DNA from: a virus | Taxonomy: Duplodnaviria; Heunggongvirae; Uroviricota; Caudoviricetes | Direction: 5' to 3' (one strand) | DNA: 4,458 nt | IMG/VR virus record: IMGVR_UViG_2671180458_000009 | Notes under the pieces: generated by a model | The model's database searches: none | Told to the model about the DNA's origin: nothing | What the model saw: the letters and a program-made list of their open reading frames with translations, nothing else | Part shown: piece after piece, positions 1 through 4,458 of the stretch | Position numbering within the stretch: position 1 is the first letter of the stretch | How the letters are laid out: each line of letters opens with the position of its first letter | Translations under genes and position numbers: made by a program

Positions 1-186
1 GAAACCATGGCATTTCTGAACCAGTTAATGCTGTACTTCTGGACGGTGGGCTGTGTTCTGTATCGTCTTTCGGGTGGGTACAGGGCAGTGCGCGATTGCT
101 GGCGCAGGCAGATTGATAAAAGGGCCGCAGAGAAAATCAGCGCCAGTCAGTCAGCCGGAAGCAAACCCGAAGAGCCGCTCATTTAG
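1..186 (+). CDS. Possible 3' end of an upstream gene, or a 59-aa small membrane protein if it starts at ATG 7 (MAFLNQLMLYFWTVGCVLYRLSGGYRAVRDCWRRQIDKRAAEKISASQSAGSKPEEPLI)
   Basis: Frame 1 is open from base 1 to TAG at 184-186. It is absent from the ORF track, probably because it is just under the length cut-off. One hydrophobic helix-like segment (FLNQLMLYFWTVGCVLY) is followed by a basic/charged tail. No upstream context is available to judge a ribosome-binding site. Confidence 0.3.
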   Translation, partial: ETMAFLNQLMLYFWTVGCVLYRLSGGYRAVRDCWRRQIDKRAAEKISASQSAGSKPEEPLI

Positions 187-472: not shown

Positions 473-548
473 GCATGCGCAAGGGACCATCGGTGTGTGC
501 CGGTGGTCTTTATATTGTTGTGAGCTTCCGGATTGCGGGAGACGGGGT

Positions 549-764
549 ATGTACCAGATGGAAAAAATCACAACAGGTGTGTCATACACCACGTCAGCGG
601 TGGGAACGGGCTACTGGTTCCTGCAGTTGCTGGACAGGGTTTCCCCGTCTCAGTGGGCGGCAATAGGCGTTCTGGGGAGTCTGCTGTTTGGGCTGCTGAC
701 ATATCTGACGAACCTGTATTTCAAAATCAAAGAGGACCGGCGTAAGGGCGCCCGGGGAGAGTGA
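549..764 (+). CDS. S: Class II holin (pinholin), phage 21 S21-like, 71 aa with an alternative internal start at 558 (68 aa)
   Basis: The translation [71 protein letters not shown] closely matches my recollection of phage 21 S21 (two TMDs, C-terminal KIREDRRKAARGE-like tail). GGGAGA lies 6 nt upstream of ATG 549. Met1 and Met4 form a dual-start motif. The ORF-track start at 495 is an upstream in-frame extension and unlikely to be the real start. Confidence 0.9.
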
Positions 765-767
765 ATA

Positions 768-1090
768 ATGAACCATGAAGAAATGAATCAGCGCTTCAGT
801 CGCCTGGAAAATGAAATTGCTGAACTGAATNNNNNNNNNNNNNNNNNNNNNNNNNNNNNNNNNNNNNNNNNNNNNNNAAGAACAATAAAAAACAGGGGCT
901 GATGCAGCGCATTGGTCGTTGCATGGGGTATCTGCAGGTAGCCGCTGAGATTGAAGCGCTGGCCAGTGGTGCGGACAAGGATTCAGTTGTGCGGGAGGCA
1001 CTTCTTCGTGATTTTGATCATCCGCCCTTTAAAAAAGTGCCGGCTTACTGGCTTCATCCCGGACTGACTTATCTGAAAGTGCGTATTTAG
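768..1090 (+). CDS. Uncharacterised protein between holin and endolysin, possibly YdfR/DUF1327-like, ~107 aa; reading frame interrupted by a 47-nt N-run
   Basis: ATG at 768 is 3 nt after the holin stop; 21 codons (MNHEEMNQRFSRLENEIAELN) run exactly to the N-run at 831. After the gap an open frame from 878 (KNNKKQGLMQRIGRCMGYLQVAAEIEALASGADKDSVVREALLRDFDHPPFKKVPAYWLHPGLTYLKVRI) ends at 1090. The two parts are out of frame by 1 with the N length as given, so the N-run is probably a gap or mask of arbitrary length. The same holin/endolysin-flanked position is occupied by ydfR in the E. coli K-12 Qin prophage as I recall; homology is inferred from position and size only. Confidence 0.5.
831..877. 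other. Run of 47 ambiguous bases (assembly gap or masked sequence)
   Basis: Directly visible as n characters in the sequence. It creates artefactual X-containing ORFs on both strands (594-1001 minus, 796-978 minus). Confidence 0.99.
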
Positions 1091-1126: not shown

Positions 1127-1660
1127 ATGAACACAAAAATCAAATACGGCCTGTCGGCTGCCGTTCTGGCGTTGATTGCCGCAGGGGCTTCTGCGCCTGA
1201 AATCCTCGACCAGTTTCTGGATGAAAAAGAAGGTAACCACACCACGGCATACCGTGATGGTGTGGGTATCTGGACCATCTGCCGTGGAGCCACCCGGGTG
1301 GATGGTAATCCTGTGATTCCTGGCATGAAGCTGTCGAAGGAAAAATGCGACCAGGTTAACGCCATTGAACGGGATAAGGCGCTGGCATGGGTGGAGAAAA
1401 ACATCAGAGTGCCACTGACTGAACCCCAGAAAGCGGGTATTGCGTCATTCTGTCCTTACAACATTGGCCCGGGTAAGTGTTTCACGTCGACGTTTTATAA
1501 ACGAATTAATGCAGGAGATCGCAGGGGAGTGTGTGAAGCGATTCGCTGGTGGATTAAGGACGGTGGCAGAGACTGCCGTATTCGCTCAAATAACTGTTAT
1601 GGTCAGGTATCCCGTCGTGACCAGGAGAGCGCGCTGGCGTGCTGGGGAATCGACAGATAA
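1127..1660 (+). CDS. R: SAR endolysin, phage 21 R21-like lysozyme (T4-lysozyme / GH24 fold), 177 aa
   Basis: The N-terminal Gly/Ala-rich weakly hydrophobic segment (YGLSAAVLALIAAGASAPEIL) is typical of a signal-anchor-release domain. The catalytic triad spacing E35-(9)-D44-(6)-T50 within EGNHTTAYRDGVGIWT matches T4 lysozyme E11/D20/T26 and R21. Overall it is close to my recollection of E. coli Qin RrrQ (177 aa). An in-frame stop lies immediately upstream of ATG 1127. Confidence 0.93.
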   Translation: MNTKIKYGLSAAVLALIAAGASAPEILDQFLDEKEGNHTTAYRDGVGIWTICRGATRVDGNPVIPGMKLSKEKCDQVNAIERDKALAWVEKNIRVPLTEPQKAGIASFCPYNIGPGKCFTSTFYKRINAGDRRGVCEAIRWWIKDGGRDCRIRSNNCYGQVSRRDQESALACWGIDR

Positions 1661-1858: not shown

Positions 1859-1957
1859 ATGGCTGAAAAATTATCCACCTGGAAGTTCATCCTTATCTGG
1901 CTGGTGTTTGTGATTATGGCCCCCGGTTATTTCATCGGTCAGATACGCTGGTGGTGA
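1859..1957 (+). CDS. Candidate 32-aa hydrophobic mini-protein ([32 protein letters not shown]), translationally coupled to Rz
   Basis: ATG at 1859 is preceded by GGGAGA with ~8 nt spacing. A single predicted TM helix has aromatic/basic flanks. The TGA stop at 1955-1957 sits 1 nt before the Rz ATG at 1959. It is too short for the ORF track; coding status is unproven. Confidence 0.35.
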
Positions 1958-1958
1958 A

Positions 1959-2426
1959 ATGAACCGCGTTCTGTGTGTGGTCATCATTGCCCTGCTGGTG
2001 GCCTGTGGTGCGCTTAGTCTGGGGCTGAATCATTACCGCGATAACGCCATCACCTACAAAGAGCAGCGCGATAAAAAAGCCAGAGAGCTGGAGCTGGCAA
2101 ACGCAACCATTACTGATATGCAGCAGCGCCAGCGCGATGTTGCTGCGCTCGATGCAAAATACTCGAGGGAATTAGCCGATGCGAGAGCTGAAAATGAAAC
2201 TCTGCGTGCTGATGTTGCCGCTGGTCGTAAGCGCCTGCGGATCAACGCCACCTGTCCAGGCTCCGTGCGTGAAGCCCCCACCACCTCCGGCGTGGATAAT
2301 GCAACCGGCCCCCGACTGGCAGACACAGTTGAACGGGATTATTTCACCCTCAGAGAGCGGTTGATGATGATGCAGAAGCAGCTGGAAGGGGCGCAGGAAT
2401 ATATCCGCACTCAGTGCCTGAAATAA
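1959..2426 (+). CDS. Rz: Spanin inner-membrane subunit (i-spanin) Rz, 155 aa
   Basis: N-terminal TMD ([18 protein letters not shown]) followed by coiled-coil-like periplasmic sequence. Strong similarity to recalled lambda Rz ([59 protein letters not shown]...[43 protein letters not shown]). Confidence 0.93.
2179..2364 (+). CDS. Rz1: Spanin outer-membrane lipoprotein subunit (o-spanin) Rz1, 61 aa, fully embedded in the +1 frame of Rz
   Basis: [61 protein letters not shown] has a lipobox (VVSAC), a proline-rich stretch and the conserved [14 protein letters not shown]...[13 protein letters not shown] motif of lambda Rz1. The embedded architecture is the classic lambda arrangement. Confidence 0.9.
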
Positions 2427-2678: not shown

Positions 2679-2690
2679 GGGCGGCGACCT
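2679..2690. promoter_or_regulatory. cosN: 12-nt cohesive-end site GGGCGGCGACCT (terminase nicking site)
   Basis: Exact match to the lambda left cohesive end, followed by CGCGGGTTTTCGCTATTTATGAAAATTTT, which matches the first bases of the lambda genome as I recall them. It lies ~180 bp upstream of Nu1, as in lambda. Confidence 0.85.
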
Positions 2691-2866: not shown

Positions 2867-3415
2867 ATGAATGTTAATAAAAAGAAGCTTGCTGAAATCT
2901 TTAATGTCGATATACGCACTATTGATCGCTGGCAAACTCAGGGGCTCCCTCAGATATCTGGTGGAGGAAAAGGTGTTGAGGTCATCTTTGATTCTGCGAA
3001 GGCGATCGAATGGTATGCTCAGCGCGAAGCTGATATTGAAAATGAAAAACTCCGTAAAGAGGTCGAGGATTTGAGGGCGGCCAGCGAATCAGACCTTCAG
3101 CCCGGCACCATTGATTACGAACGTTACCGACTGACGAAGGCACAGGCAGATGCACAGGAACTGAAAAATGCCCGCGACAGTGGGCAGGTCATTGATACAG
3201 GGTTTTGCCTTTTTGCTCTGGGAAGACTGGCACAGGAGATCTCTGCCATTCTTGACTCCATTCCATTGTCCATGCAGAGACAGTTTCCGGCACTGACGCC
3301 CGCTATGCTTGATTTCCTGAAAACCGATATAGCAAAGGCGGCAAACCGATGCGCATCAACGGCAGAGAAGTTACCGGAGATGCTGGATGAATACCTCAGA
3401 GAAGCAGCTAAATAA
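2867..3415 (+). CDS. Nu1: Terminase small subunit gpNu1 (cos-binding, winged-HTH N-terminus), 182 aa
   Basis: [105 protein letters not shown]... aligns along its length with recalled lambda Nu1 (MEVNKKQLADIFGASIRTIQNWQEQGMPVLRGGGKGNEV...). AAGGA lies 8 nt upstream of the ATG. The 3' end overlaps the A start by 29 nt, as in lambda. Confidence 0.95.
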
Positions 3416-4445
3416 CTTTGCTGTTGTTTGTGGAGTGGCACTTCGTGGGCTTTTACGCCCACTGCCTGTAACCACCGTTGAATGGGCCGATCAAAATTAT
3501 TATTTGCCCCCGGAGTCCTCTTATCTTGCTGGGCGGTGGAAGACGTTGCCCTTTCAGGTGGCAATAATGAACTGCATGGGTAATGACCGGATCCGCACAA
3601 TTAATCTTATAAAATCAGCTCGAGTCGGTTACACCAAAATGCTGATGGGCGTTATTGGTTACTTTATTGAGCATAAAAACCGTAACAGTCTTCTGTTTCA
3701 GCCTACGGATTCTGCCGCTGAAGATTTTATGAAGTCTCATGTGGAGTCAACATTACGGGATGTTCCCTGTCTGAAAATTCTTTCCCCTTGGCTGGGGCGT
3801 AAGCACCGGGATAACACACTGACATTAAAAAGATTCACGTCCCGTGTGGGGTTCTGGTGCCTGGGTGGTGCTGCCGCCAAAAACTACCGTGAAAAATCAG
3901 TGGATGTGGTCTGCTATGACGAACTTTCCTCATTCGAGCCGGATGTCGAAAAAGAGGGCTCGCCAACCCTGCTGGGGGATAAGCGTATTGAGGGCTCGGT
4001 ATGGCCAAAATCCATTCGCGGCTCGACGCCAAAAATAAAAGGCTCCTGCCAGATCGAAAAAGCGGCCAACGAGTCGGCACATTTCATGCGTTTTTATGTG
4101 CCCTGCCCGCACTGTGGGGAGGAGCAGTATCTGAAATTTGGCGATGAATCCACGCCTTTTGGCCTTAAATGGGAGAAGGACAGCCCCGAAAGCGTTTTCT
4201 ATCTCTGTGAACATCATGGCTGCGTGATCCATCAGTCTGAGCTTGACCAGAGCAACGGGCGGTGGATCTGTGAAAACACGGGCATGTGGACCCGTGACGG
4301 CCTGACGTTTTTCAGCGCTGCGGGTAATGAAATTCCGCCGCCGCGCTCCATCACTTTCCATATCTGGACGGCGTACAGTCCGTTCACCACCTGGGTACAG
4401 ATAGTCTATGACTGGCTGGATGCACTGAAAGATCGTAAGCGTTAA
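3387..4445 (+). CDS. A: Terminase large subunit gpA, N-terminal 352 aa only (ATPase region with Walker [10 protein letters not shown] and [10 protein letters not shown]); ends at TAA 4443-4445, possible truncated gene or pseudogene
   Basis: Collinear with recalled lambda gpA from residue 1 (MN..., [96 protein letters not shown]). After IVYDWL the sequence diverges from lambda (IVKDWMKTKGDTGKRK...) and hits a stop 13 nt before the window ends. Lambda gpA is 641 aa as I recall. Confidence 0.88.
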
Positions 4446-4458
4446 CGGAGTGCCGTAT

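What the first reader, a model, noticed from the sequence alone, without database searches (positions are those of the whole stretch)
768..1090. Uncharacterised ~107-aa gene wedged between pinholin and SAR endolysin, interrupted by an N-run
The holin stop (764) and the endolysin start (1127) are separated by a complete ORF that starts 3 nt after the holin stop. In canonical phage 21 I recall S and R as adjacent. The K-12 Qin prophage has ydfR (function unknown) in this same slot, so this is probably that family. Its conserved placement inside a pinholin/SAR-endolysin cassette suggests a role in lysis control or a moron carried by the cassette, and to my knowledge none has been shown. The N-terminal part (MNHEEMNQRFSRLENEIAELN) looks coiled-coil-like. 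The 47-nt N-run hides about 16 codons and leaves the two halves out of frame by 1.
Basis: partly seen in the sequence, partly recalled or inferred. Interest (0 to 1): 0.45.

Follow-up and report, generated by a model that had tools for sequence, protein, structure and literature searches.

The report
Lysis-cassette gene, longer than it looks

Summary
The ORF is real. It starts at 768, 3 nt after the phage-21-type holin stop, and ends at 1090, 36 nt before the SAR endolysin. The 47-N run (831-877) leaves its halves out of frame.

The window is collinear with E. coli prophages that are 100% identical across the visible ORF parts. They carry 282 nt where the window has 47 N, giving one 558-nt, 185-aa frame. 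No sampled complete genome has 47 nt there.

The protein has no DUF1327 match and no BLASTP similarity to K-12 YdfR. It is instead 82-91% identical to the C-terminal ~180 aa of 287-296-aa "YdfR family" proteins, which are DUF1327 plus this module. It is a targeting-domain-less isoform:
- It is predicted soluble.
- It has a helical hairpin and an alpha/beta C-domain, with no match in the two structure libraries that could be searched (PDB, BFVD).

The slot is mosaic: it can be empty, hold DUF1327 only, or hold pseudogenes. Salmonella relatives sit upstream of the holin. dN/dS is 0.23-0.40, against 0.02-0.15 for its neighbours.

Best reading: a dispensable late-operon accessory protein, not a core lysis component. 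Its function is uncharacterised. Interest is modest.

The parts
549..764 (+). Phage-21-type class II holin (pinholin family), 71 aa. It has a possible dual start (Met1 and Met4: MYQM...).
   Evidence: Pfam PF04971 Phage_holin_2_1, E 1.7e-32, 111.6 bits. RefSeq annotates the collinear CDS as 'class II holin family protein'.
754..761 (+). Shine-Dalgarno-like GGGGAGAG inside the 3' end of the holin gene. GGAG lies 8 nt upstream of the ORF's ATG.
   Evidence: Read directly from the sequence.
768..830 (+). Visible 5' part of the slot gene: codons 1-21 (MNHEEMNQRFSRLENEIAELN).
   Evidence: ORF list. 100% identical to L001 4229-4291.
831..877 (.). Run of 47 N. In near-identical genomes it stands for 282 nt, which are codons 22-115 of the gene.
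   Evidence: Offset jump of 235 nt between window and L001 across the run. Record span is 826 versus a query of 591 in all top hits.
878..1090 (+). Visible 3' part of the slot gene: codons 116-185 plus TAG. It holds the most conserved block of the family (GRCMGYLQVAAEIEA ... DFxxPPFK ... W..PG..YLK.RI).
   Evidence: 100% identical to L001 4574-4786. phrog_26186 E 5.7e-46 and phrog_1085 E 1.6e-40. Invariant columns in A1, A3 and A4.
1127..1660 (+). Endolysin (T4-lysozyme family), 177 aa. Its Gly/Ala-rich hydrophobic N-terminus looks like a SAR anchor.
   Evidence: Pfam PF00959, E 8.9e-25. RefSeq annotates 'lysozyme'. The N-terminal sequence GLSAAVLALIAAGASA and the E-8-D-5-T motif were read from the translation.
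1959..2426 (+). Rz-like i-spanin. The embedded Rz1 lipoprotein ORF is at 2179-2364.
   Evidence: phrog_13 Rz-like spanin, E 5.5e-77. The embedded ORF has the lipobox LVVSAC.

Best explanation
The slot holds a genuine 558-nt gene, of which the window shows 63 nt and 213 nt on either side of an assembly-gap placeholder.

What the protein is:
- It is a soluble 185-aa protein with three parts: an N-terminal antiparallel helical hairpin (aa 3-62), a short acidic disordered linker, and a conserved three-strand plus four-helix C-domain (aa ~76-185, pI 8.75).
- The C-domain matched no structure in the two libraries that could be searched (PDB and BFVD); the AlphaFold database could not be searched.
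- It is the DUF1327-less isoform of the modular 'long YdfR' family. The ancestral architecture is a DUF1327-like N-domain, a coiled coil or linker, and this C-domain.

How it is expressed (inferred from anatomy): it is co-transcribed from the late promoter with the holin and the endolysin. Its Shine-Dalgarno sequence lies inside the holin gene's 3' end, so it appears in the cytoplasm at the time of lysis-gene expression.

What it probably does (inferred): it is a dispensable accessory late protein rather than a structural part of the holin/endolysin/spanin machinery. The most likely mode of action is protein binding.
- In full-length relatives the DUF1327 domain docks on the catalytic half of RNase E. 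This was shown only for K-12 YdfR residues 1-72 (PMC13232886). The C-domain would be the delivered payload.
- The window's isoform keeps the payload and a putative oligomerising hairpin, but has lost the RNase E tether.

Confidence differs by step. The identity and architecture statements are near-certain. 'Accessory, not core lysis' is likely (about 0.7). The RNase E-linked payload idea is speculative (about 0.25).
For: Gene length and frame:
- Window and L001 are collinear, with 282 nt under the N-run and one 185-aa frame.
- The same 826-nt span is seen in all top hits.

Family:
- phrog_1085, E 8e-111, matching profile positions 117-296 of 296.
- 82-91% identity over 98% of its length to the C-terminal part of 287-296-aa PF07041-containing proteins (alignment A1).
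- Salmonella proteins of 245-338 aa share the C-domain. Their N-domain aligns to DUF1327 by hhalign at 90% probability, E 1.7e-6.

Structure:
- AF2 with 49 sequences gives pLDDT 82 and pTM 0.57, with the C-domain at pLDDT 85-96.
- No transmembrane segment: the maximum Kyte-Doolittle 19-residue mean is 0.76.

Expression:
- Intergenic gaps are 3 nt and 36 nt.
- No promoter-like or terminator-like site lies between 511 and 1757 on the + strand.

Accessory status:
- The slot is empty in L015.
- It holds only a 114-aa DUF1327 protein in O157 and ST131 prophages.
- It holds pseudogenes in L013 and L010.
- Relatives lie upstream of a different holin family (PF16080) in Salmonella prophages.
- dN/dS is 0.23-0.40, against 0.02-0.08 for the holin and 0.08-0.15 for the lysozyme at similar dS.

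RNase E link of the partner domain: BACTH and pull-down of K-12 YdfR residues 1-72 with the RNase E N-terminal half, plus RNA co-purification (PMC13232886).
Against: - The hidden 282 nt are inferred from other genomes and are not read in this window. A private deletion or frameshift cannot be excluded.
- No experiment exists for the C-module.
- The RNase E data concern a domain that this protein lacks. In that paper, YdfR overproduction barely changed the transcriptome.
- The tight adjacency to the holin in hundreds of E. coli prophages could still reflect a lysis-linked role.
- Fold searches gave no functional lead.
Confidence: 0.6

Rival explanations
1. Soluble lysis-timing regulator. The protein would bind the cytoplasmic tail of the pinholin or the membrane-tethered SAR endolysin and tune when lysis fires. 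This would be analogous in logic to the P1 antiholin LydB, encoded just downstream of holin lydA, or to the cytoplasmic T4 RIII. Both analogies come from my own knowledge of those systems.
For: - In E. coli the gene sits immediately after the holin stop codon and 36 nt before the endolysin, in hundreds of prophages.
- It is co-transcribed with them, and its Shine-Dalgarno sequence lies inside the holin gene.
- It is a soluble helical-hairpin protein.
Against: - The cassette exists without it (L015), with only DUF1327, and with pseudogenised copies.
- Distant relatives lie upstream of the holin, separated from it by other ORFs, and next to a different holin family.
- It evolves 3-5 times faster than the nearly invariant holin, so there is no sign of co-evolution.
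- It has no Pfam, PHROG or NCBIfam similarity to any lysis family.
Confidence: 0.2
2. Conflict gene (anti-defence, or exclusion of other phages). It would be carried in the highly expressed zone between Q and the lysis genes, and its mosaicism would reflect an arms race.
For: - The architecture is highly mosaic, with swapped N-termini and middle segments and 46-98% identity within one species.
- dN/dS is elevated relative to its neighbours.
- The taxonomic range is narrow: 42 representatives in 1.84 billion proteins, from Escherichia/Shigella, Salmonella, and metagenome assemblies of unknown source.
Against: - No PADLOC hit.
- No own promoter, so it is probably silent in the lysogen. RNA-seq found almost no ydfR reads in K-12 (PMC13232886).
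- No known anti-defence fold was found.
Confidence: 0.15
3. In this particular genome the gene is broken. Under this reading the N-run is length-true, so a 235-nt deletion leaves two out-of-frame fragments of 21 and 70 codons.
For: - As written, the halves are out of frame.
- Pseudogenised copies of the family exist elsewhere.
Against: - Both visible parts are 100% identical to an intact 185-aa gene.
- No sampled genome has a 47-nt spacing.
- Draft assemblies often break inside this gene: many 'partial' proteins sit on contigs under 500 nt.
- The window has the look of a short scaffold with a ragged end.
Confidence: 0.07
4. One reading: a ~107-aa member of the YdfR/DUF1327 family.
For: It occupies the same slot as ydfR in K-12 Qin. 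RefSeq names long relatives 'YdfR family protein'.
Against: - No PF07041 match.
- No BLASTP alignment to K-12 YdfR.
- Its length is 185 aa in collinear genomes.
Confidence: 0.02

Closest known systems
Long 'YdfR family' proteins of E. coli prophages (287-296 aa; e.g. P0034, P0005; phrog_1085)
   Same: - They occupy the same slot between the class II holin and the lysozyme.
- Their C-terminal ~180 aa are 82-91% identical to this protein.
- They share the same coiled-coil segment and the same conserved C-terminal motifs.
   Different: They carry an N-terminal DUF1327 domain of about 100 aa (PF07041, 138 bits), which this protein lacks entirely. This protein starts with its own Met (MNHEEMNQR...) at the coiled coil.
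K-12 Qin YdfR (b1555, 103 aa, DUF1327)
   Same: It has the same genomic slot (essQ-ydfR-rrrQ). It is the other half of the same ancestral two-module protein.
   Different: - No detectable sequence similarity.
- K-12 YdfR is essentially the DUF1327 module alone.
- Its reported RNase E binding maps to residues 1-72 (PMC13232886), which have no counterpart here.
Salmonella enterica prophage hypothetical proteins of 245-338 aa (e.g. P0169, P0129, P0133)
   Same: - They share the C-domain, with the invariant motifs HRD..II, GRxMGLLQVAAEIEA, DFDNPPFK and W..PG..YLK.RI.
- They lie in the late operon downstream of Q.
   Different: - Only about 30-45% identical.
- They have a divergent DUF1327-like N-domain (hhalign 90%).
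- They lie upstream of the holin, which belongs to another family (PF16080), not between holin and endolysin.
Soluble antiholins or lysis modulators encoded next to holins (P1 LydB, T4 RIII), as a functional analogy only, from my own knowledge
   Same: They are small soluble proteins co-expressed with a holin. For LydB, the gene lies immediately downstream of the holin gene.
   Different: No sequence or fold relationship was found. This gene is dispensable for cassette organisation, and its position relative to the holin is not conserved in distant relatives.

Membership tests
YdfR / DUF1327 (Pfam PF07041) | Match to PF07041 at or above the gathering score (25 bits) | tested here: not met
   The 185-aa protein and the visible 62-aa C-terminal part have no PF07041 hit even at E<=1. 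The positive control P0034 scores 138.4 bits over residues 1-100.
YdfR / DUF1327 (Pfam PF07041) | Sequence similarity to the archetype, K-12 YdfR | tested here: not met
   BLASTP finds no local alignment with E<=100.
YdfR / DUF1327 (Pfam PF07041) | Gene located between the phage-21-type holin and the lysozyme of a lambdoid prophage | tested here: met
   Window 768-1090 lies between the holin (549-764) and the lysozyme (1127-1660). K-12 has essQ-ydfR-rrrQ. Slot survey.
YdfR / DUF1327 (Pfam PF07041) | Binding of the RNase E N-terminal half through residues 1-72 (reported for K-12 YdfR, PMC13232886) | not testable with these tools
   This is a wet-lab property. The residues concerned have no counterpart in this protein.
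C-terminal module of long YdfR-family proteins (phrog_1085) | Significant full-length match to the family profile | tested here: met
   phrog_1085, E 8e-111, residues 1-185 against profile positions 117-296 of 296. The visible C-terminal part alone gives E 1.6e-40.
C-terminal module of long YdfR-family proteins (phrog_1085) | Conserved C-domain motifs (GRCMGYLQVAAEIEA, DFxxPPFK, W..PG..YLK.RI) | tested here: met
   All are present in window 878-1087. They are invariant or nearly invariant columns in A1, A3 and A4.
C-terminal module of long YdfR-family proteins (phrog_1085) | One uninterrupted reading frame through the middle of the gene in this window | tested here: inconclusive
   The bases are masked by N (831-877). 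Collinear genomes have 282 nt in frame, but this window itself cannot be read.
Holin / antiholin or other known lysis protein families | Transmembrane domain, or match to a known lysis-protein profile | tested here: not met
   Maximum Kyte-Doolittle 19-residue mean is 0.76. No lysis family is found in Pfam, PHROGs or NCBIfam.
Moron (autonomous transcription unit inside a prophage operon) | Own promoter and terminator flanking the gene | tested here: not met
   Intergenic gaps are 3 nt and 36 nt. No promoter-like or terminator-like site lies between 511 and 1757 on the + strand. This is a consensus scan only.
Known anti-phage defence systems (PADLOC-DB) | Match to a PADLOC protein model | tested here: not met
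   No hit for P0001, P0169 or P0133. P0034 gives only a chance-level hit at E 0.018.

The most novel reading that the evidence does not exclude
The conserved C-domain (aa ~76-185) would be a new, Pfam-less protein domain with a fold not represented in the PDB or BFVD. It would act as the effector half of a phage late protein whose other half (DUF1327) docks on RNase E. The 185-aa isoform in this window would be a natural 'effector-only' version. Either it acts on late mRNA turnover, or it is a soluble regulator of pinholin/SAR-endolysin lysis. Either outcome would add a previously unrecognised player to the lambdoid late programme.
Probability: 0.15. Interest if true: 0.6.

Novelty: new variant of a known kind. 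Interest (0 to 1): 0.3.

Why it matters
Practical point: the N-run is not length-true. Reading it literally gives a wrong gene size (107 aa instead of 185 aa) and a false frameshift.

Biological points:
- 'YdfR family' as used in annotation covers two unrelated modules. The C-terminal one has no Pfam model, no match in the PDB or BFVD, and no published function.
- That module sits next to the lysis genes in thousands of E. coli prophages, including Stx phages (4225 of 5426 complete genomes match this holin-lysozyme cassette).
- Natural isoforms exist with only one module or the other. These are ready-made dissection tools for asking what each half does, now that an RNase E interaction has been reported for the DUF1327 half.

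The gene is dispensable for cassette organisation and is often decayed, so a large phenotype is not expected.

Tried and rejected
- First AF2 run with a shallow, E. coli-only alignment (24 sequences): pLDDT 52, unusable beyond the N-terminal hairpin. I replaced it with a 49-sequence alignment that includes Salmonella relatives.
- Profile search against PDB sequences: only chance-level hits, the best at E 0.0057 to the PARP1 BRCT linker region.
- NCBIfam: no model for any family member. PADLOC: none. Rfam on the whole window: none.
- The genome-contig scan returned only 3 loci, from Escherichia and Shigella, because the collection holds one genome per species.
- Contexts of the most divergent relatives (P0153, P0134) sit on ~1-kb contigs and are uninformative.
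- Literature searches (ydfR, DUF1327, YdfR family, essQ/rrrQ, pinholin plus SAR endolysin) gave one relevant paper, PMC13232886. Nothing was found on the C-module.
- I considered and rejected a minus-strand ORF (594-1001) as the real gene. It runs through the N-run, has no homolog support, and the plus-strand frame is the one that is conserved.
- I considered that the short form is a recent deletion of the long form, and rejected it. The short forms have their own conserved N-terminus (MNHEEMNQRFSRLENEIAELN), which differs from the equivalent long-form segment (KDDIESRIEKLENSVVELN).

Full report
**1. What is in the window**

The window is the late region of a lambdoid prophage. In order it contains:
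- two small ORFs typical of the zone between Q and S (7-186 and 227-472; phrog_494 and phrog_311/8301);
- a phage-21-type class II holin (549-764; PF04971, E 1.7e-32);
- the ORF in question (768-1090);
- a T4-lysozyme-family endolysin whose N-terminus looks like a SAR anchor (1127-1660; PF00959);
- Rz with embedded Rz1 (1959-2426 and 2179-2364);
- a lambda-type cos region;
- the small terminase subunit (2867-3415);
- the 5' part of the large terminase subunit (3387 onward).

**2. Checking the observation**

- The holin stop is at 762-764.
- The ATG is at 768, preceded by GGGGAGAG at 754-761.
- There is one N-run of 47 bases, at 831-877.
- The stop is at 1088-1090, and the endolysin start is at 1127.
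- As written, the 21 codons to the left and the 70 codons to the right of the N-run are out of frame by -1.

**3. What the N-run hides**

The window is collinear with a prophage of E. coli CFIAFB20190157 (NZ_CM143728, locus L001).
- The coordinate offset is 3461 on the left of the N-run and 3696 on the right.
- Outside the last 24 nt there are only 12 mismatches, and none within the visible parts of the ORF.
- The jump of 235 nt means that L001 has 282 nt where the window has 47 N. With them, the gene is a single 558-nt frame of 185 aa, annotated in RefSeq as a hypothetical protein.
- All 25 best complete genomes show the same 826-nt span for the 591-nt query.
- In a spread sample of 60 records, the spans with both flanks present were 826, 863, 745, 1160 and 1258, and never 591.

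Several observations point to a draft scaffold:
- Database copies of this protein are often 'partial' on contigs of 360-460 nt.
- The matching region occurs in a median of 2 and up to 14 places per genome.
- The window's own last 24 nt match no complete E. coli genome.

I therefore read the N-run as a scaffold-gap placeholder of arbitrary length in a short draft scaffold. The '~107 aa' size and the 'frameshift' are artefacts. A private deletion in this genome cannot be formally excluded; I put it at about 7%.

**4. Family assignment**

The 185-aa protein is not a DUF1327 protein.
- It has no PF07041 hit even at E<=1.
- It has no NCBIfam hit.
- BLASTP against K-12 YdfR gives no alignment at all.

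It does match phrog_1085 at E 8e-111, covering only profile positions 117-296 of 296. A search of 5.8 billion proteins explains this:
- Proteins of 287-296 aa, named 'YdfR family' or 'DUF1327 domain-containing', consist of an N-terminal DUF1327 domain (138 bits in P0034) followed by a region 82-91% identical to this protein.
- K-12 YdfR (103 aa) corresponds to the DUF1327 part alone.
- The window's protein corresponds to everything behind it.

The short forms (185-221 aa) share their own conserved N-terminus, MNHEEMNQRFSRLENEIAELN. They differ in inserted middle segments, so the family is a mosaic.

**5. Wider distribution**

An exhaustive profile search of 1.84 billion cluster representatives found only 42 proteins at E<=0.001. 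The divergent ones that carry a source name are Salmonella enterica hypothetical proteins of 245-338 aa. They share the C-domain, with these invariant motifs:
- H103;
- GR(C)MG(L/Y)LQVAAEIEA;
- DF(D/N)xPPFK;
- W..PG..YLK.RI.

Their N-domain is not recognised by Pfam, but hhalign aligns it to DUF1327 at 90% probability, E 1.7e-6. The two-module architecture is therefore ancestral. The DUF1327-only form (K-12) and the C-module-only form (this window) are both derived.

In species-representative genomes only Escherichia and Shigella loci were recovered.

**6. Genomic position**

Within E. coli the slot between this holin and the lysozyme is highly variable:
- a 558-nt insert (this 185-aa form);
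- about 890 nt (296-aa long form);
- about 810 nt (268 aa);
- about 360 nt (114-aa DUF1327-only form, in O157:H7);
- about 650 nt (ST131: the 114-aa form plus a remnant);
- a pseudogene (L013);
- nothing, with the holin stop 4 nt from the lysozyme start (L015).

In the Salmonella-type relatives, the gene lies downstream of the Q antiterminator but upstream of the holin and separated from it by other ORFs. In two of three loci that holin belongs to another family (PF16080).

The conserved feature is therefore 'late operon, next to the lysis genes', not 'between holin and endolysin'.

**7. Selection**

The gene is under purifying selection, but a weak one.
- Nei-Gojobori dN/dS is 0.23-0.40 for unsaturated E. 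coli pairs (dS 0.11-0.39).
- The flanking holin has 0.02-0.08 and the lysozyme 0.08-0.15 at comparable dS.
- One copy (L010, in Shigella flexneri and E. coli) has a C-terminal frameshift.

**8. The protein**

With a 49-sequence alignment, AF2 gives pLDDT 82 and pTM 0.57. The model has:
- helices 3-27 and 31-62, forming a hairpin;
- a disordered acidic linker at 62-71;
- strands 79-83, 88-92 and 95-97;
- helices 101-117, 123-144, 151-161 and 176-184, at pLDDT 85-96.

The protein has no hydrophobic segment (maximum Kyte-Doolittle 19-residue mean 0.76). The hairpin is acidic (pI 5.4) and the C-domain mildly basic (pI 8.75).

Fold and profile searches gave no functional lead:
- Foldseek against the PDB and BFVD gave nothing at E<=0.001.
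- A profile search against PDB sequences gave chance-level hits only.
- The AlphaFold database library was unavailable, so it could not be searched.

**9. Expression**

The intergenic gaps are 3 nt and 36 nt. A Shine-Dalgarno-like sequence lies inside the holin's 3' end. No promoter-like or terminator-like site lies between 511 and 1757 on the + strand. The gene is therefore part of the late lysis transcript and not an autonomous moron.

**10. Literature**

Only one relevant paper was found. PMC13232886 (RNA Biol 2026) reports the following:
- K-12 YdfR, through residues 1-72, interacts with the catalytic N-terminal half of RNase E, shown by two-hybrid and pull-down assays.
- YdfR co-purifies with RNA.
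- Its overproduction hardly changes the transcriptome.

This concerns the module that the window's protein lacks. Nothing was found on the C-module.

**11. Interpretation**

Shown:
- the gene's true length in collinear genomes;
- its modular relationship to long YdfR proteins;
- the absence of DUF1327;
- solubility, predicted from hydropathy, and a confident two-domain model;
- co-transcription anatomy;
- the dispensability and variability of the slot.

Inferred:
- It is an accessory late protein rather than a component of the holin/endolysin/spanin machinery (about 0.7).
- It works by protein binding. In full-length relatives the C-domain would be the payload of an RNase E-docking protein, and this isoform would be an untethered version (about 0.25).

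Rivals:
- a soluble lysis-timing regulator, as with P1 LydB or T4 RIII, by analogy from my own knowledge (0.2);
- a phage-conflict gene (0.15);
- a broken copy in this genome (0.07);

**12. Verdict**

The family assignment is half right: the slot and the annotation umbrella are correct, but the domain is wrong.

The gene is already catalogued as a hypothetical protein in RefSeq and as phrog_1085. What is new here is the domain-level dissection. Interest is modest, at 0.3.

Noticed in passing
window 4435-4458: The last 24 nt diverge from the collinear prophage (L001) and from every complete E. coli genome searched. The large-terminase ORF (3387-4445) therefore ends prematurely at 352 aa. This looks like a ragged or chimeric scaffold end, or a rearrangement junction.
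   Followed up: partly
window 1859-1957: A 32-aa hydrophobic ORF ([32 protein letters not shown]) has its stop overlapping the Rz start. It matches phrog_6632 (E 2.9e-19, unknown function) and is not annotated in the collinear RefSeq genome. It may be an extra small membrane protein of the lysis cassette.
   Followed up: partly
window 2679-2690: GGGCGGCGACCT, followed by CGCGGGTTTTCGCTATTTATGAAAATTTT, is the lambda-type cohesive-end (cosN) sequence as I recall it. It lies between Rz and the small terminase gene.
   Followed up: no
window 482-511: A 13-bp stem-loop (AGGGACCATCGGTGTGTGCCGGTGGTCTTT) lies about 40 nt upstream of the holin start. The scan flagged it as terminator-like. It could be a regulatory structure of the late transcript.
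   Followed up: no
window 549-560: The holin begins MYQM..., with two in-frame Met codons (549 and 558). This is a possible dual-start (antiholin/holin) motif, as in S21.
   Followed up: no
L013 430-765; L010 4001-4630: Copies of the slot gene are decayed in other genomes. RefSeq marks a 'YdfR family' pseudogene in E. coli EE72d. A copy found in Shigella flexneri and E. coli ECMA0423 has a C-terminal frameshift (it ends ...PPLRKSLMTGSSRG).
   Followed up: partly
L015 301-1054: In E. coli O2:H6 PG20180057 the same holin is followed after 4 nt directly by the lysozyme. The slot is empty, so the cassette is organised without any slot gene.
   Followed up: yes
L007 831-1103 (minus strand); L014 2154-2468 (minus strand): In ST131 JJ1886 and in an Stx2a phage, annotators call an opposite-strand hypothetical ORF between the slot gene and the lysozyme. 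The window has no counterpart. I did not check whether these are real genes or remnants of the C-module.
   Followed up: no
window 1-65: Five of the six left-flank mismatches to L001 cluster in the first 65 nt (positions 10, 42, 50, 57 and 65). This is either a recombination boundary or low-quality scaffold-end sequence.
   Followed up: no
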